Sequence record: OQ834936
Reading direction: 5' to 3' (one strand)
Length of the DNA: 64,000 bases
DNA from: Shigella phage Henu12
Positions 1,413 through 41,109 of the stretch are shown here, in pieces (the first letter of the stretch is position 1; each line of letters begins with the position of its first letter). Below the pieces are notes generated by a model, which worked only from the letters and a program-made list of their open reading frames with translations, did no database searches and was not told where the DNA came from. The position numbers were made by a program, and so were the translations under genes.

Positions 1413-1650
1413 ACCTACCTGCACAAACTGAAAATGAATTTTCCCTTTGGAGTCCAACTGCATCTGCACAGATTGAAAATGAAAAACCCCTTTGGAGTCT
1501 AAACCTGCACAAATTTGAAATGAATTTTCCCTTTGGAGTTCAGCTAAAGAAATCTGTCCAGAGTTCTATGCAACTATACCTGCACAAATTTAAAATGAAA
1601 AAGCCCTCCTTACCTGAGATTTTAAACTCAAACTTTGGAGGGCTTGTCTA
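1413..1650. repeat. tandem array of four imperfect direct repeats of about 45 bp (core CTGCACAAAtTtGAAAATGAAttTTCCCTTTGGAGT), last unit ending in an inverted repeat
   Basis: Units start near 1418, 1463, 1504 and 1578; intergenic between the 959-1165 gene and the macro-domain gene. Confidence 0.7.
1590..1650 (-). terminator. putative intrinsic terminator downstream of macro-domain gene (stem AAGCCCUCC/GGAGGGCUU then U-rich run)
   Basis: Inverted repeat 1602-1610/1635-1643 followed on the minus-strand RNA by UUUUCAUUUUAAAUUU; the loop is large so efficiency is uncertain. Confidence 0.35.
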
Positions 1651-1669: not shown

Positions 1670-2464
1670 TTAGTTACGTGCTTCAACATAGTTTACGTTT
1701 TCATGTGTGATATAATCTTCTGCAAACTCTTCTGTAGTCGCATTGATATATACACTTGCATCATCGCCAAACGTTACCGCTCTGTGGTGGTGGCCTTGTA
1801 ACGGGTGGGTAACTTGAGCGTTACTTCGATTGTACTTCTCAACCGGAGGGTAACTGGTGTGTACCTTGCCATTACGCTTCACCTTGAGGGTAACTTTATC
1901 CTTGCCTACCACAGCAACACCATCAAAGTATTGAGGCTCACTGAAGTTCTCCCAACCAGTAACAGGACTAGTCAACTGACTGTACATCTTATCTTCATAG
2001 ACATACATATAAACGTCAACATCCTTCATAGTCTGGTTGATAATGGACAGTACAGCCATGCTATCAAGACCACCAATCCCTGCACCAATCATCGGAAGCC
2101 CAACTTTCTTAAGTTGATTAACTTTACAGTAGTTGTTAAGACGCTGTAAAGCTGCTTCTAAGGCGTTGTATCGTGCATCTTTGCCAGTGATAACCTGAGT
2201 GTAAAGGTTAGCAATTCGACCCTGCTTAAAACGTGCTACAGAGATGTTACCAAGCATTAGATGCTTAGGGTTATGATTTTCACCACCTACTGTAGCATAA
2301 ACTTCAGCGTCAGTTTCATAAGCTTTTGGGTAGCGTTTAGCAATTGTTGCTGCGATACCTGCTGGCATCAAGTTCATGCAGTTACAACCGTGACCAATGA
2401 TATCAAACTTCTTACCATCAAAATCTTTAAAGATATCACCTTTAATAATTTTTACGATACCCAT
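1670..2464 (-). CDS. macro-domain protein, TARG1/DarG-like (putative ADP-ribose glycohydrolase) with C-terminal extension
   Basis: Motifs GHGCNCMNLMPAGIAATIAKRYP and GLPMIGAGIGGLD resemble the TARG1 HCISEDCRMGAGIA and PRIGCGLD signatures. Start moved to internal Met (MGIVKIIKGDIF) with GGGAG RBS and ATGA overlap with the upstream stop; the track ORF extends to 2521. Confidence 0.6.
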   Translation of the reverse strand: MGIVKIIKGDIFKDFDGKKFDIIGHGCNCMNLMPAGIAATIAKRYPKAYETDAEVYATVGGENHNPKHLMLGNISVARFKQGRIANLYTQVITGKDARYNALEAALQRLNNYCKVNQLKKVGLPMIGAGIGGLDSMAVLSIINQTMKDVDVYMYVYEDKMYSQLTSPVTGWENFSEPQYFDGVAVVGKDKVTLKVKRNGKVHTSYPPVEKYNRSNAQVTHPLQGHHHRAVTFGDDASVYINATTEEFAEDYITHENVNYVEARN

Positions 2465-2465
2465 A

Positions 2466-2666
2466 TTAGTAATGCTCCCAACGTTCGTTATCTTCAGATG
2501 GTTTAACTCGGTTACCTTCATGGTCTACCCATAAAGCACCGCAACCTTCACAGATTACTGGCATTGCTGAACCAGCTTTAAATTCTGCCTTTGTAAAGAG
2601 ACCTTTTAAGTCTCCTGTATCTTTTCCAAACATCTCAACAGAACACTTAGTGCAGAAATCAGCCAT
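2466..2666 (-). CDS. small zinc-ribbon protein (CxxC...CxxC)
   Basis: ORF track; two Cys pairs (CTKC, CEGC). Confidence 0.5.
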   Translation of the reverse strand: MADFCTKCSVEMFGKDTGDLKGLFTKAEFKAGSAMPVICEGCGALWVDHEGNRVKPSEDNERWEHY

Positions 2667-4642: not shown

Positions 4643-5338
4643 TCAGTTTTTAACAAGCATTGTTTTGATGTGTGGTAAGATTCTTTCAACCTTTGCCACG
4701 TTCTTCACTGTATCTTCTATAAAGCATACTACATCATAGTAAGGTAGAATGCAAGACTGAAGCATACGAACTTTCAAACTTTCTGCACTAATCTCATTGT
4801 CACCAAATCCACGCATAAACAGTAGGAAATCACTGTCTACATTCTCATTCAGGAAAAGATGTGTGACAACTCTTTGTGATTCTCCACGAGCAGTTAAGAA
4901 TCCTATATCAGCATTTCTTGATATACCACACAGGATGTTAAAAACATATGTTGGTTTAGCTCTGCGAGAGTCTACCAAGTTAGTATACTGTGAGTAAGTA
5001 CCATCATCTAACAAAGTTGCATTAAGCTCCTTATTAAAGCTTGTAAGAACACCGTCAATGTCTGCTAAGACCATTTTACGTTTTTCTTCCAAGTTCTTTG
5101 CAACCAAGATAAGGCTGTTACGACCAACATCTACAGTTTTACCTGTTAGCAAATCCTGACAAGGAATCTGTGTCTTTGTTGAGTGGAAGTCTTCAAATCT
5201 ACACACAACATTTCTTGCTGTATCTGCAAAGTCAGCTTTAGCAATATCTGACCAACTTGCAGAACTGATATCTAAATCAAGTGGCTTAATATCATAAGCA
5301 TGACACAGAACCATATCAAATTGTTTTGATTCGCTCAT
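4643..5338 (-). CDS. HAD-superfamily phosphatase-like protein
   Basis: Motif LADIDGVLT (DxDGxL/T), the HAD motif I. Confidence 0.45.
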   Translation of the reverse strand: MSESKQFDMVLCHAYDIKPLDLDISSASWSDIAKADFADTARNVVCRFEDFHSTKTQIPCQDLLTGKTVDVGRNSLILVAKNLEEKRKMVLADIDGVLTSFNKELNATLLDDGTYSQYTNLVDSRRAKPTYVFNILCGISRNADIGFLTARGESQRVVTHLFLNENVDSDFLLFMRGFGDNEISAESLKVRMLQSCILPYYDVVCFIEDTVKNVAKVERILPHIKTMLVKN

Positions 5339-10152: not shown

Positions 10153-11979
10153 TTAAAGTTGCTTGTCAATAGTATTTCGAACATCACGCAGGTTAACGTA
10201 ACCATAAGGTTGCGAGTTACTAAATACCAGTTTCAAAGCACTATGACAGTTGTCAATTGCACCTTCAAACTCTGCAAAGCCAAAACCATCTACAGCTACC
10301 AGCTTGTCACCATCCCACATAGGGACAACTCCACCAAAAGCAGACTTCTTAAGACCGCTGTCAGTTTTAGGGTCTTTAGCCAGCATAATTTCTTGACCAT
10401 CCATCTGTGCAAGAGTTGCTTTAACAGCAAATGCAAAGGTGTCACGAGTCAGGTACTGATAGGTGTATGAGCCTACACCAAACACTACGTTAGAACTTGC
10501 AAAACCTTTATCAGCAAGACGTGACAGAATCTCATTAGCCCTTTCCAGAGTGATAGAATCACCGTAGATTAGCCCAATGTGCTCATCCAGTACTTTGTAC
10601 CCTTTGGAGTTAACAGTGCCACCAAAGATGTTATACAGCGTGTGTATAGCTCCATCAATTTCTGCTGTTAACATACGCTTCACAGTAAACTGTCCAGTTT
10701 TCTGAGCGGTAATCAGGTTGATTGTGTCAATATAATCAAAATCTTCATTTTCAACAACCATCTCATAACCTTCAGAGATTAACCAAGCAGAGAACCCAAA
10801 ACCAATATCAGACATTTCACAATTCAAGATTGTGTCATGCAGATGGGTATTATCTGGTGCAAGACCTTTCATGTGCTTGTAGAACATTGACTTAGCAGTT
10901 TCCCATTCAACGGCTTTGTAACCTGTAACAATGTGAACAGGGTCTCCAGAGTCTGGACGAATTACCAACTTACCATCACGATTCAGAATTACATTACGTA
11001 GCTCTGGCAGAATCTGTGTAACAGTACGCCAGAAGTTGTAAGTATCTGATACGGCACTTGCAATACCAGTTGGGTAAACTTCTGTCAGAAGGCGATGGAA
11101 AGTTTCTACCTCACCACGCCAACGTTTGGCATCTAGTAATCCTTCAGACTGCATAATGTACTGTGAGTGAATATCCTCTTCTGTCAGGTCTTTCATATTC
11201 CATGAAATGTTTGCACACATCACAGAGTGTTCAGTTGCTGGTACAGAGTTGCCAATATCACTGATTGTCATAAACTGACCATAAGCACGTTTAGCAGTAT
11301 ACACAGCAGGGAAGCTGTCAGTACCTTTAAAGCTGGTCAAGTGACCTACAGCATTAAAAGCATCATCTGTGAAGCCAGACATACCACGCATTGCAAAATC
11401 ATGACACTGCCAAGGTAAATGGAAGTCATTGTCACAGGTCTTGTCAGCCCATTGTTTACAGATACGTTTGTAATGCAGTGCAATAGTTGCAATCGTACAA
11501 GCCTTCCAGATTTCAGCAGAGAAAGCATCTTCAAGGTAACCAGCTACCCAATGGAATCCCTCTACAGTGTTTTTAAAGACAATCATCGGGACACGCATAG
11601 GGACAATTGTACCTTCCTCTACAGAGTAGACTTCAACAGGTAGGTAACCCAAGTCATGAAGTTCTTCCCAATGTTGACGACCAATAGCATCTGCACCAAG
11701 GACACCATTCATGATTTCCAAGATTTCGTCAATGGCTTCTTTCTTATCACGTTCAAAGAACGTTGCATTCCAGTGGTCTACCAGATAGTCTTTTACAAAA
11801 CGCTGAATACCAAAGGCTACAACACCATCAATCTCTAACGGAGAGTTAAACCATTTATCTCCACGAGGTGTTAAGTTCAGCATAAGATACTGTGTAGCAT
11901 CTGGATACTGGTAGAAATGGCCAGATTTGTAGGCATCTGCATTAAGTGCTGCTGGTACTGCATAAAGTGATTTAGTCAT
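10153..11979 (-). CDS. nadV: nicotinamide phosphoribosyltransferase (Nampt/NadV)-like protein
   Basis: 608-aa protein with Nampt-family character (by my recognition of the translation); adjacent to the Prs-like gene. Confidence 0.8.
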   Translation of the reverse strand: MTKSLYAVPAALNADAYKSGHFYQYPDATQYLMLNLTPRGDKWFNSPLEIDGVVAFGIQRFVKDYLVDHWNATFFERDKKEAIDEILEIMNGVLGADAIGRQHWEELHDLGYLPVEVYSVEEGTIVPMRVPMIVFKNTVEGFHWVAGYLEDAFSAEIWKACTIATIALHYKRICKQWADKTCDNDFHLPWQCHDFAMRGMSGFTDDAFNAVGHLTSFKGTDSFPAVYTAKRAYGQFMTISDIGNSVPATEHSVMCANISWNMKDLTEEDIHSQYIMQSEGLLDAKRWRGEVETFHRLLTEVYPTGIASAVSDTYNFWRTVTQILPELRNVILNRDGKLVIRPDSGDPVHIVTGYKAVEWETAKSMFYKHMKGLAPDNTHLHDTILNCEMSDIGFGFSAWLISEGYEMVVENEDFDYIDTINLITAQKTGQFTVKRMLTAEIDGAIHTLYNIFGGTVNSKGYKVLDEHIGLIYGDSITLERANEILSRLADKGFASSNVVFGVGSYTYQYLTRDTFAFAVKATLAQMDGQEIMLAKDPKTDSGLKKSAFGGVVPMWDGDKLVAVDGFGFAEFEGAIDNCHSALKLVFSNSQPYGYVNLRDVRNTIDKQL

Positions 11980-11999
11980 CTTTTTATCTCTCTCAAAGT

Positions 12000-12015
12000 G
12001 GGGCTTTTCAGCCCC
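12000..12015 (-). other. conserved stem-loop GGGGCU-GAAA-AGCCCC between Prs-like and Nampt-like genes
   Basis: Perfect 6-bp stem with GNRA-type loop; same 16-mer at 7138-7153 and a variant at 45251-45266. Confidence 0.55.
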
Positions 12016-12023
12016 TAAAGTTG

Positions 12024-12923
12024 TTATTCAATATTTGCTACGGTCACTTGTGAGAAGTGGGAAAGACCACGGTCTTTTTCATCCCCTAGTGAGTTTGTAG
12101 TGTAGATATGGTCGATACCATTGTCAAGGAGATTTTCAACACCTTTAGAGAAAATCCCATGAGTGACATACAGTTCCACACGTTCTGCTCCAGCTTCACG
12201 AAGATACTTTGCAGCCTCGATAAAGGTTCGACCACCGTCACAGATATCATCCAGAATCATGACAGTCTTACCTGTCAAGTCTACATCATCAAGGATTCGC
12301 ATACCAGTGATTTCACCAGTTTTCAGGTTTCGTACCTTAGCCATTGTAATATAAGGTTTATCAACCTCTTTAGCAGCCTCTTCAGTCTTCTTAGCTGCAC
12401 CTGCATCTGGAGCCACTAAGTAATCAATGCGTGGGTCACTTGCAAAGTGGACTGCTGCCTCTTTTTGAGGGAGGTTGTAGAAGCTCTTAAACAAATTCTC
12501 TGCAACATTACTGTGAGTATCCAGAGCACATACTGCATCGAACTCCATAGCATTTACAAGATTTGCAAAGACTTTAAGTGCTGCTGCATCACCTTTAAAC
12601 ATGTGACGGTCATAGCGAGCATTTGGTAAGAATCCAAAGACAACAGTTTTCAGAGTTGCTTTCTGAGGAATCAAACGGTCAATTGCTTCTTTAGCCATAG
12701 CTAATGCAAAGAGTGTGTCTTTGTCATAACCTTGTACTGTGAAGACTACGTTTTCAATCTTACCAGCAGCATGTTCAGCAAAGTCTACTAAGTCTTCTGA
12801 GAAGTTACCACCAATCTCCCCAGAAGGGAACTGGATAATGTTGAAGGTCTCTTGATGAGAACCTTTGGAATTTGAATTAAGTAGAACTCGAATAGTAGTT
12901 TTCATAATATTTCTCTCAGTCAA
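12024..12923 (-). CDS. ribose-phosphate pyrophosphokinase (Prs)-like protein
   Basis: PRPP-binding loop VMILDDICDGGRT; 299 aa. Confidence 0.8.
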   Translation of the reverse strand: MTERNIMKTTIRVLLNSNSKGSHQETFNIIQFPSGEIGGNFSEDLVDFAEHAAGKIENVVFTVQGYDKDTLFALAMAKEAIDRLIPQKATLKTVVFGFLPNARYDRHMFKGDAAALKVFANLVNAMEFDAVCALDTHSNVAENLFKSFYNLPQKEAAVHFASDPRIDYLVAPDAGAAKKTEEAAKEVDKPYITMAKVRNLKTGEITGMRILDDVDLTGKTVMILDDICDGGRTFIEAAKYLREAGAERVELYVTHGIFSKGVENLLDNGIDHIYTTNSLGDEKDRGLSHFSQVTVANIE

Positions 12924-14671: not shown

Positions 14672-15125
14672 ATTCTTTTCTCCACAAGTTTTGGTTATCT
14701 GAACCACGATATGGTTTGTTCGTTGGTTTAGAAGCATCATACTTACCATCAATCACTACGTCAACATATTTCATCACTTCTTTGTTAATTTTTTCATGAA
14801 GCTGAAATCCTGTCCACAGCCAGATAGTCTTGTCTGGATAGATAGACTTAACCTTCTGACAAATCTTGGTGACTTCCTCAATATTACGGTCATCAAGTGG
14901 TTCTCCACCAAGAATTGACAGACCACTTATAGAGTCATCTTCCAAGAGTCTTATAATGCCATAAAGGTTTGCATAAGTAAACTCTTTACCAGCATTAAAC
15001 TTCCAAGATTCCTTGTTAAAACAACCTTCACAGTGATGTTTGCAGCCAGCTACAAAAAGACTGACACGAGCACCTTCACCGTTCGCTGTATCGAATTTTC
15101 GTATTTCCATGTAGTTCATTAGCAC
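14634..15125 (-). CDS. nrdG: anaerobic ribonucleotide reductase activating protein (radical SAM)
   Basis: CxxxCxxC cluster (CKHHCEGC), about 160 aa, adjacent to nrdD. Confidence 0.8.
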   Translation of the reverse strand: MLMNYMEIRKFDTANGEGARVSLFVAGCKHHCEGCFNKESWKFNAGKEFTYANLYGIIRLLEDDSISGLSILGGEPLDDRNIEEVTKICQKVKSIYPDKTIWLWTGFQLHEKINKEVMKYVDVVIDGKYDASKPTNKPYRGSDNQNLWRKEYGWQGDCQWRTE

Positions 15126-15511
15126 ACCTCAACTTCAAAACTTACATGTTTTGTGACGTACTCTTCACAATGCTCTTTAATAAATTCCTGAAGCAGTTCA
15201 TCTTCCTGAGCACGAGTCATCAAAGCAACATACTTTGGATTTATTGTTTGCTGAATACTGTAGAAAGACATGTCACCAATTTCTGTACCATATGAATCTG
15301 ACCATGTTCCAGTTACTACTAAGACTTTATCACTCAACTCCGTAGGGAGTTCAATGTCATCATCCTTTGCGTCATCAATAACAGAGTCAGTTATTAAAAG
15401 AGTACATGCTATGTAAAACTCTGAGTATTTTCTGTGAGTTTTCTCACAAGAGCCACACTCTAAAGCATAGTCTTTAAGCCAGTTCATTTGATTTTTATTT
15501 AATTTAGTCAT
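15119..15511 (-). CDS. hypothetical protein (130 aa)
   Basis: ORF track. Confidence 0.5.
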   Translation of the reverse strand: MTKLNKNQMNWLKDYALECGSCEKTHRKYSEFYIACTLLITDSVIDDAKDDDIELPTELSDKVLVVTGTWSDSYGTEIGDMSFYSIQQTINPKYVALMTRAQEDELLQEFIKEHCEEYVTKHVSFEVEVC

Positions 15512-15608
15512 TTCTCTTTCCTTTCAATGTGTTGTATAAAAGCCCTAACAAGAAACCTAGTAAGACAGAGCCTACTAAGGTGACTAACAAGAATGTCTTA
15601 ATCATCAT
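15504..15608 (-). CDS. small hydrophobic single-TM peptide (34 aa, MMIKTFLLVTLVGSVLLGFLLGLLYNTLKGKRND)
   Basis: Hand translation; start overlaps the upstream TGA (TGATG) and stop overlaps the downstream ATG, so it is translationally coupled on both sides. Confidence 0.4.
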   Translation of the reverse strand: MMIKTFLLVTLVGSVLLGFLLGLLYNTLKGKRND

Positions 15609-31908: not shown

Positions 31909-34608
31909 ATGGACAATGTAGATTTCGAAAAATTACATTTGGTTGGTGATACAGAAACTGATGGGTTGCTCCTTGAGTTTACAAAAGCACACGTAATGGC
32001 TTTCGCAGACTATAAAGATGACAGTGATGAACCTGCTGTGTGGGTTTTCACTGATGAGCCTATTCTTGGTCACAAGTATACAAAATACATCAAAGGTGGT
32101 CTGCGTGAAGGTGTTGAGTTTGCACTGAAAGCTAAACGTCTTTGTATCCACAATGGTCTTGGTTATGACTGGTGGGTGTTTAATCACATTGCACCTGACC
32201 TGTGGAACTTTGAGAATCCTAAGTGTAAGCCTTGGAGTGACTTCTTTCAGGATTCACTTATCCAATCTCGCGTACAGTGGATGGATAGACCTACACCAAA
32301 AGGTTACAAAGGTGCTCATGGTTTGGCTGCATGGGGTGCTCGTGTTGGTGTTCGTAAACCAGAGATTGAAGAGTGGGGTGTATGGAATGCAGAGATTCTT
32401 ACTCGTGTTGTAGAAGATATTAAGATTAACGCCAAAACTAAACGTGCTCTTGATAATGAGTACCTTAAGCTTAAGAAGTGTGGTGTTGACACTTATGAAA
32501 CCTATATGCGAGCTAAAGAAACATCTTTCTGGATGAGCCAGCAAGCTATCAACGGTTGGAAAGCTGATGTAGAACTTATGCAGTTCCATGTTAAAGAACT
32601 TGACAAGTTAACTAATGAGTTAGCTGCTGAGGTTGAGCCACACCTGCCACCAACTATCAAGACAAAAGGTAAGGTCACAGGTGAAGAGTTTGCTAAGTCT
32701 TGGAATGAGTATGTGGATACATTTGGTCACGTTGACGGCTTAAAAAGGATTACCAAGTACCCTAAGACAAAGTATCGTGAACAGATGCGTGAAGGTGAGT
32801 TGAAGCAATACCCTATCAAGCCATATGGAAAGCCAACTACAAAGATTTTTAACGTTGAGAAACGTAACTGCTACACACCAACTAATACGGTTACCAAAGA
32901 AGAGTACCCTGAAGGTTTCGTAGCAATGAAAGATGCTCGTGCAGTTTGTAATGAACTGAATGAGAAGATTGGGAAGAAGTGTAAAGATTGGAAACCAGTT
33001 AAGACTGTGAAGATTGTGAAGTACTATAATGTGCATGTTGTAAATCACTTCGAGTTGGAGTCAAGTCGCTACACTGGTTTGATTGATGCACCATTCACAC
33101 CAATTGAGTTTGAAGTTTCACGAATGACTCAGGTAGCTGTGGTGAAGGATTACTTAAAATCTGTTGGTTGGATTCCTGATGATTGGAACTACAAAAAAGA
33201 TTCTGATGGTCGTCCGGTTAAGGTTTGCAGATTCAAAGACAACAAAAAGATGATTCGCAAACATCCTAAGTGGGATGAGATGGTTGAGCGTTGTGGGTTG
33301 AACTATATTGAGCATGAAGGTGTCTATTACATCGAGCATAACTGGTCTGTTAAGAAGTACACAGATGTGCTTGAGCCTTGCTTGATTAGGACTTCACCAA
33401 AGCTTACAGAGTCTTCTTATGATACAATCGAAGGTGAGCTTGGACAGAAGATTGCGAAGTACTATACTTTGATGCACCGACGCAGGACTATTGAGAACTC
33501 AAAGGATGATGAGAAAGGTTGGCTGAACCAGATTCGTCCAGATGGTCGTTTGAGTGCAGGTGCAATGGTGTTTGGTACTTCTACTGGACGTATGACTCAG
33601 TATGGTATTGTAAACGTACCTTCTGGTGCTGCTGTTTACGGTGAGCCAATGAGGGCAGTGTGGATTTGTGAAGAGGGAACCAACGTAGTATCTGTTGATA
33701 TGAACTCTGCACAGCTTGTACTACTCTGTAACTTCATGGGTGATAAAGACTTCACCAAAGCGGTAACAGAGGGTAAAGAAGAGATTGAGTTTGTTCGTCA
33801 AGAGGATGGAAGATACTACTGCAAACACTTTGACCAGTATCTGAATCCAGAGATTGACAAGTATCTGCGTTATGACTCTGAAAACGATTTGTACGTAGTT
33901 TACTCAGGGACTGATGCTCACACTCTGAACAGTATCTACTTCAGCCTTAATGATGAGCAAGATATCTTGACTTGTCGTGCTACTCAGGATGAGAATCTTC
34001 TTCATGAGATTAGCAAGGGACGTAAGAAAGCTAAGAATGGTATCTATGCCCTGTTGTTCGGTGCAGGTGATGAGAAGTTTGCTAAAACAATTAAAGCAGC
34101 AACTACTCAGGAAGGTGCATTGACTAAGCAGACTTACTTTGTGCGCTTGCCGAAGATTAAGAAACTGTTAGACAACTTGGAAGCTGATTTCAAAGCAACT
34201 AAGAAAGCACTTGAAGAGGTGTTTGGTAAAACTGCTGCGATAGCTAAAGGTGGTTTTGTGAAGGTTGCTGGAGCTTGGCTGTGGTGTAAGTCTCCACACA
34301 AGCTGTTAAATTACCTTTTGATGGGTTCAGAAAGTCAAGTCCAGAATGAAGCAATTAACCTTGCATGTCGTCGTATGATTGATGAAGGTTTGATGAAGTT
34401 GAATGGTCGTAAACCAGCTATTGGCGCTCGCTTACTCTGTGCTTACCACGACGAAACAAGTTGGGAATGTCCAGAGCACATGACAGCAGATGTGAAAGCA
34501 GTAACTGACTGGTATTATGGTCAAGCATCTAAGAACCTTGGACTAAGGAAAGAAACCTTGGTAACAGGTACTGGTAAAGTTGGTAAGAGCTGGTATGAGG
34601 TACATTGA
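31909..34608 (+). CDS. DNA polymerase, family A (T7 gp5-like) with 3'-5' exonuclease domain
   Basis: DTETDG exo motif; HGLAAWGARVG, YALLFGAGDEK and HDE blocks resemble T7 DNA polymerase. Confidence 0.9.
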   Translation: MDNVDFEKLHLVGDTETDGLLLEFTKAHVMAFADYKDDSDEPAVWVFTDEPILGHKYTKYIKGGLREGVEFALKAKRLCIHNGLGYDWWVFNHIAPDLWNFENPKCKPWSDFFQDSLIQSRVQWMDRPTPKGYKGAHGLAAWGARVGVRKPEIEEWGVWNAEILTRVVEDIKINAKTKRALDNEYLKLKKCGVDTYETYMRAKETSFWMSQQAINGWKADVELMQFHVKELDKLTNELAAEVEPHLPPTIKTKGKVTGEEFAKSWNEYVDTFGHVDGLKRITKYPKTKYREQMREGELKQYPIKPYGKPTTKIFNVEKRNCYTPTNTVTKEEYPEGFVAMKDARAVCNELNEKIGKKCKDWKPVKTVKIVKYYNVHVVNHFELESSRYTGLIDAPFTPIEFEVSRMTQVAVVKDYLKSVGWIPDDWNYKKDSDGRPVKVCRFKDNKKMIRKHPKWDEMVERCGLNYIEHEGVYYIEHNWSVKKYTDVLEPCLIRTSPKLTESSYDTIEGELGQKIAKYYTLMHRRRTIENSKDDEKGWLNQIRPDGRLSAGAMVFGTSTGRMTQYGIVNVPSGAAVYGEPMRAVWICEEGTNVVSVDMNSAQLVLLCNFMGDKDFTKAVTEGKEEIEFVRQEDGRYYCKHFDQYLNPEIDKYLRYDSENDLYVVYSGTDAHTLNSIYFSLNDEQDILTCRATQDENLLHEISKGRKKAKNGIYALLFGAGDEKFAKTIKAATTQEGALTKQTYFVRLPKIKKLLDNLEADFKATKKALEEVFGKTAAIAKGGFVKVAGAWLWCKSPHKLLNYLLMGSESQVQNEAINLACRRMIDEGLMKLNGRKPAIGARLLCAYHDETSWECPEHMTADVKAVTDWYYGQASKNLGLRKETLVTGTGKVGKSWYEVH

Positions 34609-35120
34609 TGCGAGATTGTGGATTCACACATGAACAGTTAAAGTCTTGGTTAAACTATGACCCCGAAACAGGGGTCTTAACGTGGATTGGCAGGCCTCCA
34701 CATAGTAGTAGGGTGGTTATTGGGAGCCAAGCCGGAGCAATCAAGCGCACAAGGTCTGGTGTGTATATGCACACACAGATTTTAGGATACAGGACAGGCA
34801 ATCACCGAATTGCTTGGTTCTGGATGACAGGCAAGTGGCCTGATAAACACATTGACCACAAAGATGGAGATGGTTTGAATAACGCTTGGGACAATCTCAG
34901 GGAGGCCACAAAAGAACAGAACATGTCTAATAGGAGACAACCCAGAACATCAAAAAACTTAAAAGGTACAAGTAGAAGCAAGTCTGGTAAGTGGATAGCC
35001 CAGATTAACCATAATGGCAAGACTATACATATAGGTACATACACAACAGAAGAAGAAGCCCATAAAGCTTACTGTGAAGCTGCTATTAAACTCCACGGAG
35101 AGTTTGCAAAACTAAGTTGA
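34605..35120 (+). CDS. HNH homing endonuclease with AP2-like domain
   Basis: YDPETGVLTW, IDHKDGDGLNNAWDNLREATKEQN and AP2-like C-terminus; ATGA overlap with the polymerase stop. Confidence 0.7.
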   Translation: MMRDCGFTHEQLKSWLNYDPETGVLTWIGRPPHSSRVVIGSQAGAIKRTRSGVYMHTQILGYRTGNHRIAWFWMTGKWPDKHIDHKDGDGLNNAWDNLREATKEQNMSNRRQPRTSKNLKGTSRSKSGKWIAQINHNGKTIHIGTYTTEEEAHKAYCEAAIKLHGEFAKLS

Positions 35121-35171
35121 CAAGGTGCTCATGGAAGAGTACCTTATACTATATCTTGTATAGGAGGTTAC

Positions 35172-35390
35172 ATGACACTTTCAGACGTTATCCAACAACT
35201 TCAGGTAAGTGGTTACACTCAAGAGCAAATTGATGAGCTAAACATCATATCCATGCCAAACCGTTTTGTTAAAGCTTTTGGGTTAGAAGTTGTAAGGATG
35301 GCACATATACTCATTGTGGATGGTCTTCTTATCAAAGACAGAACTGGTGCTTTGAAAGGTAAGAGAATCGATATCACGGAGATATTATGA
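35172..35390 (+). CDS. hypothetical protein (72 aa)
   Basis: ORF track; AGGAGG RBS. Confidence 0.45.
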   Translation: MTLSDVIQQLQVSGYTQEQIDELNIISMPNRFVKAFGLEVVRMAHILIVDGLLIKDRTGALKGKRIDITEIL

Positions 35391-35596
35391 GTCACCGTGG
35401 TAGAACTCATCTTGCCATGATGCAAGGGGCTTCAAAAGAGACTATCAAGAATCGTAAGAAAACTCTTTTTGACAGAATGAATAGACTCATTGACAATGCA
35501 AGTCTACCTAACTCTGAAAAGGTTTTCTTGAAAGGGAATCTGAAGAGTATTGCACAGGAACTTATTGACATTGAATTTTGGAGACACCAAAAATGA
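35387..35596 (+). CDS. hypothetical protein (69 aa)
   Basis: ORF track. Confidence 0.45.
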   Translation: MSHRGRTHLAMMQGASKETIKNRKKTLFDRMNRLIDNASLPNSEKVFLKGNLKSIAQELIDIEFWRHQK

Positions 35597-35796
35597 CTTA
35601 TGAAGAAGCTATTGAAGCCATGAAGAGTGGTCACAAAGTACGTAATGAAAATTTCACATCTGATGAGTTCTTCGAAATGAAAGATGGGAAGATTGTCTGT
35701 GAAATGGGTTACCCAATGGCTACATGGTATAAGGGAGAACCTTGGCAGAAAACTGGATGGAGTATCTTTAATGAAATTTTACACCATTTGGGGTAG
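35578..35796 (+). CDS. hypothetical protein (72 aa)
   Basis: ORF track; preferred over the overlapping 35684-35914 frame. Confidence 0.4.
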   Translation: METPKMTYEEAIEAMKSGHKVRNENFTSDEFFEMKDGKIVCEMGYPMATWYKGEPWQKTGWSIFNEILHHLG

Positions 35797-35903
35797 AGTC
35801 GGTAAAGGTTATGACTGGATTCTCCTTAAAACAAATGTTAAAAGTAATGAGATAGTTTACTACAAAGTCTATTACCATAAAACTTTTAGAGAGGTAGAGT
35901 ATC

Positions 35904-36155
35904 GTGAGCAGTAGAGAAGAAGAAGCTTTAGCAATCTTCAAGAATGAAGATAAATCAATATCTTTTGTATCAGAGGCTTGGTGCAGGGGCTTAGGTTATG
36001 ATTGGTATCTCTTCTTATGTGCTAAGAAAGATGTTAAACCAGTTGATGAAACCCGATTCAAAGAACTGTATACTGTCTGCCAAGAGGGTTATGAAGAACA
36101 CTACGAAGGCTCTTTGAATCCTGTAAATTCAAAAGCTTCAGATTTATTTTATTGA
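35904..36155 (+). CDS. hypothetical protein (83 aa)
   Basis: ORF track. Confidence 0.45.
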   Translation: MSSREEEALAIFKNEDKSISFVSEAWCRGLGYDWYLFLCAKKDVKPVDETRFKELYTVCQEGYEEHYEGSLNPVNSKASDLFY

Positions 36156-36165
36156 GAGGTCTAAA

Positions 36166-36402
36166 ATGTTAAAATTATTGATACCAGCTTTAGTAGTTCT
36201 ACTAGTTGGGTGTAACCCTTCTTACGAGAATAAGGATGCTTCTTACAGACTTCCTCCAGAAATGCAAGACTGCAAGATTTATAAGCTTAATGGTGATGCA
36301 ACTAGCAGGGATGTTATTGTAGTTCGCTGTCCAAATTCTCAGACGACTACTTCTTACAAGTATGGAAAGAATAGTCAGTCACATACTACTGTTTTTGATT
36401 GA
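36166..36402 (+). CDS. putative lipoprotein (signal peptide ending LLVGC)
   Basis: Lipobox-like LVGC after a hydrophobic signal. Confidence 0.5.
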   Translation: MLKLLIPALVVLLVGCNPSYENKDASYRLPPEMQDCKIYKLNGDATSRDVIVVRCPNSQTTTSYKYGKNSQSHTTVFD

Positions 36403-36412
36403 GGATATTAAT

Positions 36413-36619
36413 ATGCAGGTTCTGGTAAATTTTATCTATAAGTATGAAAACATCTTCAGCACCATGACTGAAGGTCAACGCAATCCAGTTATCCCACGGG
36501 AAGGGGAGATTGTTGAGATTAATGACTGGAACCACAGAGTTGCAGAGGTCAAGCATAAACTTAAAGATGGTTATGACCACCAAGTTGTAAATGTGTATTT
36601 AGAAGGTAAGTGGCAATGA
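36413..36619 (+). CDS. hypothetical protein (68 aa)
   Basis: Start set at internal Met with GAGGA RBS (track start 36362). Confidence 0.4.
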   Translation: MQVLVNFIYKYENIFSTMTEGQRNPVIPREGEIVEINDWNHRVAEVKHKLKDGYDHQVVNVYLEGKWQ

Positions 36620-36710
36620 GCATCTTACATATCATCTCTGAAGATTTTGGAGGGTGCTCTTGGCACTCATTTTTCACAAAAGGTTGTCTAGCTTGTGAGG
36701 CACGTAAAAA

Positions 36711-37811
36711 ATGACAATTCTGTACAAACAAAACAAAGATGGTTCTTTCAACGTTTGGTCATGTGTTGCTGTAGGTGATAAAGTTGTTACAACCTACGGT
36801 AAAGAAAATGGCAAGATGATGTTCGAAGAGTACACAGCAGAACCAAAGAACATTGGTAAGAAGAATGAGCGTAATGCTGAACAGCAAGCTCTCTTTGAAG
36901 TTGCTGCTAAGTACAAGAAGCAGGTTGACCGTAAAGGGTATGCTTACACAAAGTCTGAAGCAGAGAATGTTGAGAAGGTTGGTGTACAGCTTGCTCAGGA
37001 TGCTTCCAAGATAAGTCACAAGAAGTATCTGGTATTCCCTGCCGATGCTCAACCTAAACTTGATGGTGTTCGTTGCAGGATTTCAAGAGATGCTGACTCA
37101 GAAAGTTTTACGGCATATTCTCGTGAGAACACGGTATACAACATTCCTGTAGAGTTGATTCCTGATGTTCTTCTTATGCTGAAACTGCACAAAGATGTTG
37201 AGGATTTCGATGGTGAGATTTATGCTCATGGTTGGGACTTGGAAGATATTGTATCTATGATTAAGAATGCTGACAATCCAGACCGTCACCTTCTTAAGTT
37301 CTACTGGTATGATATCTGTGACAAGACTAAATCTTGGCCTGAGCGTCGTGAAGTTATTGAGACTTCACCTTTAAATGACCTGAGAAATGGCTGTAGAGTT
37401 GTCCCTGTTAAATCTCGTCGTGTTAACTCTTGGGAAGAATTTGACACTGCTCATGATAAGTGGGTTGAAGCGAAGTTTGAAGGGGCAATGTACCGTTCAA
37501 TCTCCCCAGATTCATTCTATGAGTGTGGTCACCGTTCATACTTCTTGATTAAACATAAGAAGATGCACACCAAAGAGTTCACAGTAACGGGTGTGAAGAC
37601 TGATAAGCGTGGTCATGGCAAGTTCGTTGTAGAGACTCTTCCTAACGTCTTTGTAGATGTTTCATGGAAAACTACACACGAGAAGAAAAAGTATCTTGCT
37701 GAACATCCTGAAGAGTTTATCGGGAAGCCTTTAACGGTTCAGTTCCAGAAGATGACTCGTAAGGGTTCTTTACAGTTCCCTGTTGGGCTAGTAATTCGAG
37801 ACTATGAATAG
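36711..37811 (+). CDS. ATP-dependent DNA ligase
   Basis: Adenylation motif I KLDGVR and overall size (366 aa) typical of phage ligases. Confidence 0.75.
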   Translation: MTILYKQNKDGSFNVWSCVAVGDKVVTTYGKENGKMMFEEYTAEPKNIGKKNERNAEQQALFEVAAKYKKQVDRKGYAYTKSEAENVEKVGVQLAQDASKISHKKYLVFPADAQPKLDGVRCRISRDADSESFTAYSRENTVYNIPVELIPDVLLMLKLHKDVEDFDGEIYAHGWDLEDIVSMIKNADNPDRHLLKFYWYDICDKTKSWPERREVIETSPLNDLRNGCRVVPVKSRRVNSWEEFDTAHDKWVEAKFEGAMYRSISPDSFYECGHRSYFLIKHKKMHTKEFTVTGVKTDKRGHGKFVVETLPNVFVDVSWKTTHEKKKYLAEHPEEFIGKPLTVQFQKMTRKGSLQFPVGLVIRDYE

Positions 37812-37819
37812 AGGCCAGT

Positions 37820-37969
37820 ATGTTTAGTGCAATTGTTCTGTTTATATTTGTTGTTTTATCATTGGCTTACTTCACAAGTAAACTCTTAAGTATAACATAC
37901 AAAGCAGCCTTAGCCCTTACTCTGTTGTCATTTGCAGTAAATGCAGCAGTTAGAATGTATTTAGTATAA
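37820..37969 (+). CDS. small hydrophobic membrane protein (49 aa)
   Basis: Hand translation MFSAIVLFIFVVLSLAYFTSKLLSITYKAALALTLLSFAVNAAVRMYLV; GAGG RBS 5 nt upstream. Confidence 0.35.
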   Translation: MFSAIVLFIFVVLSLAYFTSKLLSITYKAALALTLLSFAVNAAVRMYLV

Positions 37970-37974
37970 AATTG

Positions 37975-38003
37975 TTGACATGAGTAACCTGACGGGTATA
38001 CTA
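37975..38003 (+). promoter_or_regulatory. sigma70-like promoter TTGACA-N16/17-TATACT
   Basis: Good -35 and -10 about 40 nt upstream of the secreted-protein gene. Confidence 0.55.
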
Positions 38004-38046
38004 CCTATATAGAAAATTATATAGGAACCCGTCAGAAACCTCGGGG

Positions 38047-38433
38047 GTGTTTATGAAAAAGTTACTTGTTGGTGTCATTGCTCTTGGTATGAGTTTTAGT
38101 GCAGCAGCTATGAAGATGCCTGAAGCAAACTTTAATGGTATCGCTTTAGAATCTTGTAAGATTGTACAGAAAATCGCTTCAAATGCTGGAGAGTTGACTA
38201 AACCGTTGTCTGCTCAGACTGTTCAAGAAATGACTGATAAGATGGTTGACTACAACTACCATTTTATGGGAGATTACTATGACAGATTAGCAGATGAGAT
38301 GGTCACTCAGAACGTTGACCTTCTTGATAGCAAAGGTATTGAGACTGTAGAAGATGTGAAAGACAACTTTATGCGTGAGTCTTTCAAAGGTGTTCAATAC
38401 TTTATTGAAAATCGTCACTGCATGGGTTTATAA
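38047..38433 (+). CDS. secreted/periplasmic hypothetical protein (signal peptide)
   Basis: N-terminal signal MKKLLVGVIALGMSFSAAA. Confidence 0.5.
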   Translation: MFMKKLLVGVIALGMSFSAAAMKMPEANFNGIALESCKIVQKIASNAGELTKPLSAQTVQEMTDKMVDYNYHFMGDYYDRLADEMVTQNVDLLDSKGIETVEDVKDNFMRESFKGVQYFIENRHCMGL

Positions 38434-38435
38434 TC

Positions 38436-38639
38436 ATGAAGAAGAACATCTGTAGAACAGACTATGGTGAAGTGGTCGATGATGACGGAGTAGTTATTTA
38501 CAGAGTTTGGGCTAATGATTTTGCAACCGTTGTAGAATCTTTAGATAACTACATTAATGGGACTCGTGAAAACGTCAGAGCAACTAATCTTGATTCGTTA
38601 ATAGACACTTCTCGAAAACGGAGAAAGAAAGATGAATGA
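38436..38639 (+). CDS. hypothetical protein (67 aa)
   Basis: ORF track. Confidence 0.45.
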   Translation: MKKNICRTDYGEVVDDDGVVIYRVWANDFATVVESLDNYINGTRENVRATNLDSLIDTSRKRRKKDE

Positions 38640-38931
38640 AGTCTTTGACCCATATGCACCTCAAGATTCTTGGGAGGCTGATAGAGAGGCTGAAATGGAG
38701 AGTTATGTCTGTCCAATGGATATAGAAGAGATGAAAGACTTTGTATCTTTCAGATTCTTTAAAGAGATTGAGAAGCTAAAACTTTCTCAGGCTCAAGTAG
38801 CAACTGTTTGTGAAATCTCGCAGAGTCGTGTGTCAAATATCATTAACGACCCTCAAAAGATTTCTTTAGAGTACATGCTTAATGCTTGTACAAAACTTGG
38901 TGTAAATTTTAACTTAAGGCTGGCAGATTAA
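38632..38931 (+). CDS. helix-turn-helix DNA-binding protein
   Basis: HTH-like segment LSQAQVATVCEISQSRVSNI. Confidence 0.5.
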   Translation: MNEVFDPYAPQDSWEADREAEMESYVCPMDIEEMKDFVSFRFFKEIEKLKLSQAQVATVCEISQSRVSNIINDPQKISLEYMLNACTKLGVNFNLRLAD

Positions 38932-38932
38932 T

Positions 38933-39292
38933 ATGAAACGTGAAAATGCAATCTTTAATGATAACTTTGCAATTGGCTTCTATGGTAAACCAACTCCAGC
39001 AGAGAAACTTTATGGTAATGCAATTCTGGAGACCTTGAAAGAGGTTTACACAACTGGTGGTATGAAGCATACTGAAGCAAACCGTGTAAGAGGTTATATG
39101 GCAATTGGCTCTGCAATCTCTAACATCAAACTTGAAACTACAAGTGCTAAAAAGGTACGAGACCACTTCATCAAAGAGTTGTCAGATAACCTAGATGGTG
39201 TTGAAGTCAAGGCTGTCTGGTTAGATGTTGATGGTCACAACTACACAACTTTTGTGTTTAAAAATGAGGATATCAAATGTCTCTTCCCTTAA
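38933..39292 (+). CDS. hypothetical protein (119 aa)
   Basis: ORF track. Confidence 0.5.
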   Translation: MKRENAIFNDNFAIGFYGKPTPAEKLYGNAILETLKEVYTTGGMKHTEANRVRGYMAIGSAISNIKLETTSAKKVRDHFIKELSDNLDGVEVKAVWLDVDGHNYTTFVFKNEDIKCLFP

Positions 39293-39780
39293 AACTCGAT
39301 TTATACTTTGGGTACAGTGTATTGCAAGGCAGCATACTATCACTACCAAAGTCAGATTATCGTTGTGATTTAGGTTCTGTGAAACGTGCATCACACTTTA
39401 ACAACAACATCTTAGGCTTGCAGACACTTCACAGGTGGCTTGAGGAAGATGGACGGTTGAATGAATATCTTCACCAACTAGAACTAGCCAAAGAAGAAGG
39501 GCATATGGGTTGGGATTTACTACCCCATCTGTACAAGCCTGCAAGCCCTATGGAGATACGCTATAACGAACAAGCAATTGATAGTTATAACAAATATAAT
39601 ATAACTATTGGCTCCAGAGCTTGGAAGGAGTATATGAAACTCCGTGAAATCATCATACAGACTATTGGAAAGCGTGTAGCAAAAGGTCTTGCTTATGATG
39701 AAAAGGTTGACTGGAATACACAAAAGTGTATAAAATTCTTCAAGTACGATAATGACAAGGATACTTTTGTAGAGGTTTAA
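39277..39780 (+). CDS. hypothetical protein (167 aa)
   Basis: ORF track. Confidence 0.5.
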   Translation: MSLPLKLDLYFGYSVLQGSILSLPKSDYRCDLGSVKRASHFNNNILGLQTLHRWLEEDGRLNEYLHQLELAKEEGHMGWDLLPHLYKPASPMEIRYNEQAIDSYNKYNITIGSRAWKEYMKLREIIIQTIGKRVAKGLAYDEKVDWNTQKCIKFFKYDNDKDTFVEV

Positions 39781-39781
39781 C

Positions 39782-40297: not shown

Positions 40298-40566
40298 AAA
40301 TCTTAAGCGGAGTATCACAGTGTTACATGAATGATGGTGAGCCAGTTAAATGCTGCCATTGTGGAGGTGAGAACTTCCAAGGTGAAGTTTCAGAGATTGT
40401 CTCTGGCAACATCGCTGAAGAGTACACCCGTTGCTGTGGATGTGGAAAGATTTTATCTTTTTGGGCTTATGGAAGTTATGAACCACAACCTCACCTTATT
40501 TACCATCCGAACAGGATTGTGAAGCGTGTTCTGAACTGGTTCATTATCAAAGGATTTACAAAATGA
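40294..40566 (+). CDS. zinc-ribbon protein (CxxC...CxxC)
   Basis: CCHCGG and CCGCG cysteine clusters. Confidence 0.45.
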   Translation: MKILSGVSQCYMNDGEPVKCCHCGGENFQGEVSEIVSGNIAEEYTRCCGCGKILSFWAYGSYEPQPHLIYHPNRIVKRVLNWFIIKGFTK

Positions 40567-41108: not shown

Positions 41109-41109
41109 T

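What the first reader, a model, noticed from the sequence alone, without database searches (positions are those of the whole stretch)
1670..2464. Phage-encoded TARG1/DarG-like macro domain: candidate ADP-ribosylation counter-defence
Seen: the N-terminal 150 aa carry GHGCNCMNLMPAGIAATIAKRYP and GLPMIGAGIGGLD, which I match to the TARG1-type macro-domain signature (HCISEDCRMGAGIA; PRIGCGLD), followed by a 110-aa C-terminal domain of unknown fold. Established: TARG1-type macro domains remove ADP-ribose, and the DarG antitoxin macro domain reverses DarT DNA ADP-ribosylation, which is an antiphage mechanism. Inference: this early-region protein could reverse host ADP-ribosylation immunity or process ADP-ribose species linked to the NAD+ module at 10153-12923.
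Basis: partly seen in the sequence, partly recalled or inferred. Interest (0 to 1): 0.75.

Follow-up and report, generated by a model that had tools for sequence, protein, structure and literature searches.

The report
Phage counter-defence macrodomain with extra domain
This phage gene encodes an ADP-ribose-removing "macro" enzyme from a family that other phages were recently shown to use against bacterial ADP-ribose/NAD-based immunity; the enzyme family is known and the gene is already annotated, and only a small fused extra domain is unexplained.

Summary
Window 1670-2464 (minus strand) encodes a 264-aa protein with both quoted motifs, a confident macro fold and an orphan C-terminal domain of about 105 aa. 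The window is a Mooglevirus-like Ounavirinae phage, and relatives already annotate this gene as "macro domain-containing protein" or "phosphatase" (PHROG 335). The macro domain belongs to the TARG1/DarG/Poa1p (ALC1-like) class. However, the catalytic Lys of TARG1 and DarG is replaced by an invariant Gln (NLYTQ), as in SCO6735 and Bt_1257.

- T4 Tk.4 "AdfM" (39% identical, same motifs) is required to resist DarTG2.
- Vibrio phage Gary "Adpp" (30% identical) dephosphorylates ADPR-1''-phosphate so that NARP1 can rebuild NAD+ against aRES.

The window phage carries NARP1 (10153-12923), but the macro gene lies 14 genes away, not in that operon. Sequence, tree, charge and synteny do not decide between the two roles. 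I favour AdfM-like DNA de-ADP-ribosylation (about 0.45) over Adpp (about 0.3).

The C-terminal domain has no relative outside this lineage. It is under weaker purifying selection than the macro domain, and its function is unknown. Verdict: a variant of a known kind, of modest interest.

The parts
1670..2464 (-). Complete CDS (264 aa plus stop) of the two-domain macro protein
   Evidence: ORF list. Same start and length as Sf18 gp70 'putative macro domain-containing protein'. Full-length match to PHROG 335 at E 1.5e-105. Orthologs at 96-37% identity.
1991..2464 (-). N-terminal macro domain (residues 1-158), ALC1-like/Poa1p-TARG1 class, Gln-type
   Evidence: Pfam PF01661 above gathering. Profile versus PDB gives Bt_1257, Poa1p, DarG, TARG1 and SCO6735 at E 1e-18 to 1e-14. 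AF2 model plus Foldseek. 39% identity to T4 Tk.4. dN/dS 0.07-0.19.
2381..2392 (-). H25-G-C-N28 motif. N28 aligns with DarG N22; H25 aligns with Poa1p H23 and TARG1 H32.
   Evidence: Invariant in 25 homologs. Alignments to Poa1p, TARG1 and DarG. N22 is named as a DarG active-site residue in PMC13309987.
2195..2209 (-). N86-L-Y-T-Q90 motif. Q90 occupies the position of the catalytic Lys of TARG1 (K84) and DarG (K80).
   Evidence: N86, T89 and Q90 are invariant. HMMER and MAFFT alignments place Q90 opposite TARG1 'ITK', Mtb DarG 'PTK' and Bt_1257 'IGQ'. SCO6735 Gln85 is at this position and is essential.
2063..2086 (-). G127-A-G-I-G-G-L-D134 glycine-rich loop (diphosphate/distal-ribose binding). 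D134 aligns with TARG1 D125.
   Evidence: G127 and G129 invariant. Aligned to TARG1 'GCGLD'.
1673..1990 (-). C-terminal orphan alpha/beta domain (residues 159-264; folded core about 176-257)
2475..2479 (-). Possible Shine-Dalgarno sequence GGGAG, 10 nt upstream of the ATG and inside the 3' end of the upstream ORF (stop at 2466-2468). This suggests translational coupling.
   Evidence: Sequence read; ORF coordinates. Function is inferred, not tested.
10153..12923 (-). Context, not part of the gene: NARP1 NAD+ reconstitution module. Namat (Nampt-like) is 10153-11979 and Adps (Prs-like) is 12024-12923. It lies 14 genes and about 7.7 kb upstream on the same strand.
   Evidence: Pfam PF04095 and PF18127, plus PF14572 and PF00156, which is the signature described for Bas63 genes 79-80. 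Synteny with the macro gene is kept in relatives at about 40% identity.

Best explanation
The gene encodes an early, non-structural counter-defence enzyme. Its N-terminal Gln-type ALC1-like macrodomain binds the ADP-ribose moiety through the HGCN and GAGIGG loops and hydrolyses the bond at ribose C1''. Q90 would position the substrate and a catalytic water, as proposed for SCO6735 Gln85.

The most likely physiological substrate is ADP-ribose attached by DarT2-type toxins to thymidine in single-stranded phage DNA. On this reading the protein acts like T4 Tk.4/AdfM, as an orphan antitoxin-like eraser that lets replication continue in DarTG2-carrying hosts.

The fused, faster-evolving C-terminal domain is an accessory module. 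I guess that it binds a partner (toxin, DNA or replisome).

Shown: the fold, the class, the conserved active-site motifs, homology to AdfM, and purifying selection. Inferred: catalytic activity, the DNA substrate, the defence target, and any role of the C-terminal domain.
For: - Macro fold and ALC1-like class.
- Active-site motifs are invariant across 25 homologs, and macro-domain dN/dS is 0.07-0.19, so the enzyme is probably active.
- T4 Tk.4 is 39% identical (E 2e-18) and shares HGCNC, NLYTQ, the short 'TQxxPG' loop and IGAGIG. Deleting tk.4 sensitises T4 to DarTG2 (preprint 10.1101/2025.11.20.689424).
- The Gln-type enzyme SCO6735 removes DarT-made thymidine-ADPr faster than DarG or TARG1 and needs Gln85 (PMC9411070). 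Loss of the Lys therefore does not argue against this activity.
- PhiKZ AdfM shows biochemically that a phage macrodomain removes DarT2 marks from DNA (PMC13309987).
- The gene is not within the NARP1 operon (14 genes away).
- Most phage homologs (2543 records, dominated by T-even-like phages) are single macro genes unrelated to NARP1 operons.
- The macro domain of the two-domain clade is consistently basic (pI about 9), which is compatible with nucleic-acid binding. This is weak evidence.
Against: - No experiment exists for any Ounavirinae ortholog. PhageMaP on Bas63 does not mention the gene and did not test DarTG.
- The T4 AdfM evidence is genetic only and comes from a preprint.
- The NJ tree does not place the window clade with T4 Tk.4 with any support.
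- Bit scores to a NARP1-associated macro (PAK_P1, 78 bits) exceed that to Tk.4 (66 bits).
- The top structural and N-terminal sequence match is Poa1p, an ADPR-1''-P phosphatase.
- The phage carries NARP1, which would benefit from such a phosphatase.
- T4 and PhiKZ AdfM are acidic, so the charge argument does not discriminate.
- The protein lacks the longer 'mobile loop' that marks the SCO6735 subclass.
Confidence: 0.45

Rival explanations
1. Adpp-like role. The macrodomain is an ADPR-1''-phosphate phosphatase working in trans with the phage's NARP1 (Adps and Namat, 10153-12923). When aRES-type RES enzymes phosphorolyse NAD+ to nicotinamide and ADPR-1''-P, the macrodomain regenerates ADPR, and NARP1 converts that back to NAD+. 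This could be the sole role or a second activity alongside DNA de-ADP-ribosylation.
For: - Vibrio phage Gary Adpp belongs to the same family (30% identity; HQCNC, NVYGQ, IGCGLAGG). It was shown by LC-MS to convert ADPR-1P to ADPR and is required for NARP1-AP to beat aRES.
- The window encodes NARP1 with the diagnostic Pfam signature and only one macro domain.
- NARP1 and the macro gene stay in the same co-oriented early block in relatives down to about 40% identity.
- Poa1p, the ADPR-1''-P phosphatase, is the best Foldseek hit (E 6.5e-11) and the best single-sequence PDB hit.
- The published screen looked only within 2 genes either side of NARP1, so it would have missed this gene.
- aRES systems were cloned from E. 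coli, Klebsiella and Enterobacter, which are relevant hosts.
Against: - The gene is 14 genes and about 7.7 kb from NARP1, not in the operon.
- All listed NARP1-associated macros are single-domain. The representatives aligned have a 5-8-residue longer loop after the Gln, mostly with HQxNC/YGQY motifs, which the window protein lacks.
- Conserved linkage may be no more than subfamily synteny.
- The closest tested relative by identity and motifs is T4 Tk.4, in a phage where it counters DarTG2.
- The extra C-terminal domain has no obvious role for a small-molecule phosphatase.
Confidence: 0.3
2. The enzyme targets another ADP-ribose conjugate. Candidates are ADP-ribosylated RNA (5'/3'-phosphate ends, CmdT-type mRNA marks), ADP-ribosylated proteins (Asp/Glu esters, as for TARG1 and SCO6735), O-acyl-ADP-ribose from sirtuin-type defence enzymes, or ADPR-derived immune signals.
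For: - ALC1-like macrodomains are promiscuous. TARG1 and SCO6735 act on Glu/Asp-ADPr proteins, and TARG1 acts on phosphate-end ADPr-RNA/DNA.
- The neighbourhood contains a polynucleotide kinase (4643-5338), hinting at nucleic-acid end repair.
- RNA-targeting ART defence (CmdTAC) exists.
Against: - No homolog of this phage family has been shown to have these roles.
- In the assays of the NAR 2025 paper, the Gln-type SCO6735 was inactive on 5'-phosphate ADPr-RNA/DNA and on 2'-OH ADPr-RNA. That paper's Discussion words this differently.
- Both tested phage homologs point elsewhere.
Confidence: 0.15
3. The macrodomain is a non-catalytic ADP-ribose binder (sponge or reader), or a host-takeover factor unrelated to defence. 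On this view the C-terminal domain carries the real activity.
For: - The canonical catalytic Lys is absent.
- Some macrodomains (ALC1, macroH2A) only bind ADPr; this is my own knowledge.
- The function of the C-terminal domain is unknown.
Against: - The same Lys-to-Gln state is found in fully active SCO6735, in active Adpp and in T4 AdfM.
- Strict invariance of H25, N28, N86, T89, Q90 and the Gly loop fits catalysis.
- The C-terminal domain has no catalytic-looking conserved polar cluster.
Confidence: 0.05

Closest known systems
T4 Tk.4 = AdfM (anti-DarT factor macrodomain; HIDEN-SEQ preprint 10.1101/2025.11.20.689424)
   Same: Same phage macro family: 39% identity over 136 aa, E 2e-18. It shares HGCNC, NLYTQ (Gln-type), a short loop after the Gln and IGAGIG. 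It is an orphan gene with no adjacent toxin.
   Different: Tk.4 is a 155-aa single domain, whereas the window protein adds an orphan C-terminal domain of about 105 aa. Tk.4 is acidic (pI 5.9) and the window macro domain is basic (pI 9.05). The tree does not join them with support. The anti-DarTG2 phenotype is shown only for T4.
Adpp of Vibrio phage Gary (NARP1-AP pathway; preprint 10.64898/2026.01.28.702374)
   Same: Same broad family and the same Gln-type active site (30% identity). Both phages encode NARP1.
   Different: Adpp sits inside the Adps-Adpp-Namat operon, whereas the window gene is 14 genes away. Adpp-type proteins are single-domain. Those aligned have a 5-8-residue longer loop after the Gln, mostly with HQxNC/YGQY motifs.
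SCO6735 / Bt_1257 subclass of ALC1-like macrodomains (PMC9411070)
   Same: Gln replaces the catalytic Lys. Bt_1257 is the top profile hit in the PDB (E 1.3e-18). SCO6735 hydrolyses DarT-made dT-ADPr efficiently and needs Gln85.
   Different: The window protein lacks the 5-residue-longer 'mobile loop' that defines that subclass. It is only about 22% identical to Bt_1257. It is of phage rather than cellular origin and carries an extra C-terminal domain.
DarG2 antitoxin (T. aquaticus / M. tuberculosis) and PhiKZ gp104 AdfM (PMC13309987)
   Same: Same fold and class (Foldseek E 3e-9 to 6e-9, target TM 0.80-0.83). The Asn of the HGCN motif is conserved (DarG N22). Like DarG, it has a two-domain layout with the macro domain first.
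   Different: DarG and PhiKZ AdfM are Lys-type (K80/K78), whereas the window protein has Gln. Identity to PhiKZ gp104 is 22%. The NCBIfam DarG score is 49 against a cut-off of 250, and only profile positions 2-153 of 338 match, so the C-terminal domains are unrelated. There is no DarT partner.
Human TARG1 (OARD1)
   Same: D134 aligns with TARG1 D125.
   Different: TARG1's catalytic K84 is Q90 here, so the Lys-Asp covalent mechanism cannot apply.
Yeast Poa1p (ADP-ribose 1''-phosphate phosphatase; PDB 6LFQ-6LFU)
   Same: Best Foldseek match (E 6.5e-11) and the strongest N-terminal sequence match ([24 protein letters not shown] against HGCNCMNLMPAGIAATIAKRYPKA). It is the source of the 'phosphatase' annotation.
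   Different: Poa1p has Ser at the Gln/Lys position and a large insertion before the Gly loop. It is a cellular tRNA-splicing by-product enzyme.

Membership tests
Macro domain superfamily (Pfam PF01661) | Profile match above the curated gathering score, and a macro (alpha/beta/alpha sandwich) fold | tested here: met
   29.6 bits against GA 22, covering profile positions 2-117 of 118. AF2 pLDDT 89. 250 PDB macrodomain chains match at E<=1e-3.
ALC1-like class (TARG1 / DarG / Poa1p / SCO6735) | Closest solved relatives are members of this class rather than MacroD, PARG or macroH2A types | tested here: met
   The profile hits Bt_1257, Poa1p, Mtb DarG, TARG1, SCO6735 and Taq DarG at E 1e-18 to 1e-14. 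The next hits are a 406-aa macro-domain protein (7omu) at 1.6e-8 and TTHA0132 at 4e-7. The viral nsP3, PARP14 and AF1521 types score E>=0.017. Foldseek gives the same ranking.
TARG1-type hydrolase | Catalytic Lys84-Asp125 dyad | tested here: not met
   The Lys position is an invariant Gln (Q90). The Asp position is D134 in this clade but varies in the wider family.
DarG antitoxin (NCBIfam NF048014 equivalog) | Score above the curated cut-off over the full-length model (macro domain plus C-terminal DarT-binding domain) | tested here: not met
   49.1 bits against a cut-off of 250. Only profile positions 2-153 of 338 are matched.
DarG antitoxin | Catalytic Lys (Taq K80) after the 'PT' strand | tested here: not met
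   Q90 aligns to Mtb DarG 'PTK' and PhiKZ 'PTK'.
DarG antitoxin | Encoded next to a DarT toxin gene | tested here: not met
   The neighbours are small phage ORFs of unknown-function PHROGs. The gene is an orphan, as are AdfM and AdfN.
SCO6735/Bt_1257 Gln-type subclass | Gln at the catalytic-Lys position | tested here: met
   Q90 aligns with Bt_1257 'MIGQ'. SCO6735 Gln85 is described.
SCO6735/Bt_1257 Gln-type subclass | Third ('mobile') loop five residues longer than in TARG1 and DarG | tested here: not met
   The HMMER alignment needs a 6-residue insertion in Bt_1257 relative to the family profile. MAFFT shows the window loop is as short as in TARG1 and DarG.
AdfM (T4 Tk.4 type) | Sequence homology to T4 Tk.4 with the same active-site motifs | tested here: met
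   39% identity, E 2e-18. HGCNC, NLYTQ and IGAGIG are shared.
AdfM (T4 Tk.4 type) | Gene required for plating on DarTG2 hosts; removes DarT2 ADP-ribose from DNA | not testable with these tools
   The phenotype is known only for T4 and PhiKZ. I found no Ounavirinae data.
Adpp / NARP1-AP | Macro gene within two genes of Adps/Namat (the authors' operational definition) | tested here: not met
   14 ORFs and about 7.7 kb separate it from Namat in the window and in Sf17. The same spacing holds in distant relatives. The definition is given.
Adpp / NARP1-AP | The genome encodes NARP1 (Adps and Namat) | tested here: met
   PF14572 and PF00156, plus PF18127 and PF04095, at 12024-12923 and 10153-11979. 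This is the same signature as Bas63 g79-80.
Adpp / NARP1-AP | ADPR-1''-phosphate phosphatase activity | not testable with these tools
   Shown only for Gary Adpp. The window protein is 30% identical to it.

The most novel reading that the evidence does not exclude
The lineage-restricted, fast-evolving C-terminal domain may be a new partner-binding module, for example one that grips DarT2 or another defence protein, or that tethers the enzyme to ssDNA or the replisome. The protein would then be an independently evolved, two-pronged mimic of full-length DarG, combining enzymatic erasure with stoichiometric neutralisation. Alternatively, the protein may be a dual AdfM-plus-Adpp enzyme whose released ADPR feeds the phage's NARP1. 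That would link DNA de-ADP-ribosylation and NAD+ reconstitution in one counter-defence network.
Probability: 0.2. Interest if true: 0.6.

Novelty: new variant of a known kind. Interest (0 to 1): 0.35.

Why it matters
Phage macrodomains have recently been shown to be counter-defence enzymes in two separate settings: DarTG2 DNA ADP-ribosylation and aRES NAD+ phosphorolysis. Ounavirinae (Felix O1, Bas63 and Moogle-like phages, which are widely used in phage therapy and biocontrol) carry one macro gene and also NARP1. They are therefore a natural test case for whether one enzyme serves one role or both.

Bas63 is genetically tractable and its NARP1 is already characterised, so the question can be tested directly. 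The orphan C-terminal domain is the only new element here. If it binds a defence protein, it would be a new anti-defence module. Otherwise the finding is an already annotated member of a known family.

Tried and rejected
1. C-terminal domain homology. Exhaustive phmmer over 1.8 billion representatives returned only an ortholog plus weak multi-stretch hits to giant proteins. Two of those proteins consist of Bact_surface_Ig-like repeats and the third of SdrD_B-like repeats. The domain itself hits no such Pfam family, so I rejected these hits as an artefact of summed repeats and composition.
3. The profile search found a 114-aa 'stand-alone' C-terminal protein, P0030. Its contig shows it is a frameshift-split copy of a P0009-like gene, so it is not an independent architecture.
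4. I tried to separate AdfM from Adpp by pairwise scores, a bootstrapped NJ tree and net charge. Deep nodes are unsupported and charge does not track function, because both validated AdfMs are acidic.
5. I looked for direct data on Ounavirinae with DarTG2 or aRES. HIDEN-SEQ, PhageMaP, the AdfN paper and the aRES paper contain none. The LeRoux 2022 paper is not held.
6. Neighbouring genes gave no hint, since all belong to unknown-function PHROGs.
7. A search for a second macro domain in the window found none.
8. The longer ORF start at 2521 was rejected in favour of 2464, based on homolog N-termini, the Sf18 annotation and the overlap with the upstream ORF.
Full report
**Observation**

The window carries a minus-strand ORF at 1670..2521. 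That start is used for Sf18 gp70, annotated "putative macro domain-containing protein", and all homologs begin MGIVK. It lies 1 nt after the stop codon of the upstream 66-aa ORF and 10 nt after a GGGAG.

Both quoted strings are present, at residues 24-46 and 122-134. The window is a Mooglevirus-like member of the Ounavirinae: it is 100% identical to Shigella phage Henu11 and 98% identical to Sf16-Sf19. In relatives the gene is annotated "macro domain-containing protein" or "phosphatase". It matches PHROG 335 "phosphatase" over its full length at E 1.5e-105.

**Is it a macro domain, and of which kind?**

- Pfam Macro scores 29.6 bits against a gathering score of 22.
- A profile of 25 homologs hits solved structures as follows: Bt_1257 at 1.3e-18, Poa1p at 9e-18, M. 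tuberculosis DarG at 3e-17, TARG1 at 3e-17, SCO6735 at 5e-17 and T. aquaticus DarG at 1.5e-14. The viral nsP3, PARP14 and AF1521 macrodomain types score E>=0.017.
- The AlphaFold2 model is confident (pLDDT 89.4, pTM 0.88).
- Foldseek returns Poa1p, TARG1 and DarG at E 1e-10 to 1e-9, with target TM 0.77-0.86.

The class assignment (ALC1-like: TARG1, DarG, Poa1p) is therefore correct. The NCBIfam DarG equivalog scores only 49 bits against a cut-off of 250 and matches only the macro half of that model. The protein is therefore not a DarG.

**Active site**

Every alignment places an invariant Gln (Q90, motif N86-L-Y-T-Q90) opposite the catalytic Lys of TARG1 (K84) and DarG (K80). This does not indicate an inactive enzyme. 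SCO6735 and Bt_1257 have Gln at this position, and Gln85 is essential in SCO6735. SCO6735 removes DarT-made thymidine-ADP-ribose faster than DarG or TARG1 (PMC9411070). The window protein differs from that subclass in lacking its 5-residue-longer "mobile loop". Residues H25, N28, N86, T89, Q90, P124, G127 and G129 are invariant. Macro-domain dN/dS is 0.07-0.19, which fits a working enzyme.

**Tested relatives**

Three recent studies matter here.

1. T4 Tk.4 was the single hit in a transposon screen on DarTG2 hosts. A clean knockout sensitised T4 to DarTG2, and the gene was named adfM (bioRxiv 10.1101/2025.11.20.689424).
2. PhiKZ gp104, a Lys-type DarG-like macrodomain, removes DarT2 marks from DNA and was also named AdfM (PMC13309987).
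3. Vibrio phage Gary Adpp is a Poa1p-like macrodomain inside a NARP1 operon. It converts ADPR-1''-phosphate, the product of aRES RES-domain NAD+ phosphorolysis, to ADPR, which lets NARP1 rebuild NAD+ (bioRxiv 10.64898/2026.01.28.702374).

I retrieved T4 Tk.4 and PhiKZ gp104 from the annotated phage genome records and Gary Adpp from the preprint's supplementary table.

- T4 Tk.4 is 39% identical to the window protein (E 2e-18). It shares HGCNC, NLYTQ, the short loop and IGAGIG.
- Gary Adpp is 30% identical and is also Gln-type (NVYGQ).
- PhiKZ gp104 is 22% identical and Lys-type.

The window protein, T4 AdfM and Adpp therefore belong to one phage family. PhiKZ AdfM is a separate, DarG-like acquisition.

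**Which role applies here?**

The window encodes NARP1: Namat at 10153-11979 and Adps at 12024-12923. Their Pfam signature is the one described for Bas63 genes 79-80, where NARP1 was discovered in an Ounavirinae phage. The macro gene lies 14 genes and about 7.7 kb downstream on the same strand. That arrangement is kept in Sf17 and in metagenomic relatives only 37-40% identical. The macro gene is never adjacent to NARP1, so it fails the authors' criterion of two genes on either side.

All NARP1-associated macros in their table are single-domain. Those I aligned have a longer loop after the Gln. The window clade and T4 Tk.4 both have the short loop.

Other evidence is ambiguous or points the other way:
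- The bit score to the PAK_P1 NARP1-macro (78) exceeds that to Tk.4 (66).
- A bootstrapped NJ tree puts the window clade in a 100%-supported group of short-loop metagenomic macros, but it does not resolve that group's relationship to Tk.4 or to Adpp.
- Net charge does not discriminate. The two-domain clade is basic (pI about 9), but both validated AdfMs are acidic.
- Only one macro domain exists in the window.

I found no experimental data for an Ounavirinae ortholog. I therefore favour AdfM-like DNA de-ADP-ribosylation at about 0.45 and Adpp-like ADPR-1''-P dephosphorylation at about 0.3. A dual function is possible. Other ADP-ribose conjugates are about 0.15, and a non-catalytic role about 0.05.

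**The C-terminal domain**

Residues about 160-264 fold confidently, both in the full-length model and alone. The domain has the following properties:
- It matches no Pfam family.
- It has no BFVD relative other than the SUSP2 ortholog.
- It has no homolog outside this lineage among 1.8 billion representatives or in the 5.8-billion-sequence collection.

Weak hits to giant proteins are artefacts of Ig-like and SdrD_B-like repeats. An apparent stand-alone copy is a frameshift-split gene. The domain is unrelated to the DarT-binding C-terminal domain of DarG, as far as the NCBIfam profile can show.

It is under purifying selection, but this is weaker than for the macro domain (dN/dS 0.34-0.57 against 0.07-0.19). 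Its protein identity falls two to three times faster. Its function is unknown. A partner-binding role is a guess.

**Verdict**

The gene is already annotated, and phage macrodomain counter-defence is published. It is best described as a variant (macro domain plus orphan domain) of a known kind. Interest is modest at 0.35. It rests on the unexplained C-terminal domain and on the directly testable question of whether Ounavirinae use one macrodomain for DarTG2, for aRES with NARP1, or for both.

Noticed in passing
window 1417-1620 (within the unannotated gap 1166-1669): There are four copies (spacing 45, 41 and 75 nt) of a direct repeat of about 43 nt, ACCTGCACAAAyTGAAAATGAA...CCCTTTGGAGT. They lie just downstream of the macro gene's stop on the minus strand. 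One copy scans as terminator-like on the minus strand (1500..1484). No Rfam family matches anywhere in the window. The gap is also unannotated in Sf18.
   Followed up: partly
window 1670-2464 compared with L010 (Citrobacter phage KMM4) 1787-2581: The gene shows intragenic mosaicism. Between the window and KMM4, the macro half has dS 0.33 but the C-terminal half has dS 0.05 and dN 0. This implies a recombination breakpoint near the domain boundary.
   Followed up: partly
L008 (Logan ERR2213706 contig) 291-1069: In this metagenomic contig a P0009-like ortholog is split into a 162-aa macro ORF (291-779) and an overlapping 114-aa C-terminal ORF (725-1069). This could be a frameshift, an assembly error or a genuinely split gene.
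   Followed up: no
window 2466-2666 (minus strand): This 66-aa ORF has two CxxC pairs (C5/C8 and C39/C42), which looks like a zinc ribbon. It belongs to PHROG 2210 (unknown function). Its stop lies 1 nt before the macro ATG. An ORF of 66 aa sits immediately upstream of the macro gene in Sf18, Sf17, pinkbiff, the P0009 contig and L008, but not in the P0010 contig. It could be a conserved partner or simply conserved synteny.
   Followed up: partly
window 10153-12923 (minus strand): This is the NARP1 NAD+ reconstitution operon (Namat and Adps). Relatives annotate it as 'nicotinamide phosphoribosyl transferase' and 'ribose-phosphate pyrophosphokinase'. Those are the names that Osterman et al. showed to be misleading for Bas63 genes 79-80.
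   Followed up: partly
L005 (Sf17) 15032-15532: A RefSeq CDS is named 'NAD synthetase', but its note says GIY-YIG homing endonuclease. This is probably a mis-assigned product name in a relative's annotation.
   Followed up: no
window 1-64000: GC skew is negative across about 1-32000 and 42000-64000 and positive across 32000-42000. This appears to correspond to the switch of coding strand seen in the Sf17 annotation, where early genes lie on one strand and the replication and nucleotide-metabolism block on the other.
   Followed up: no
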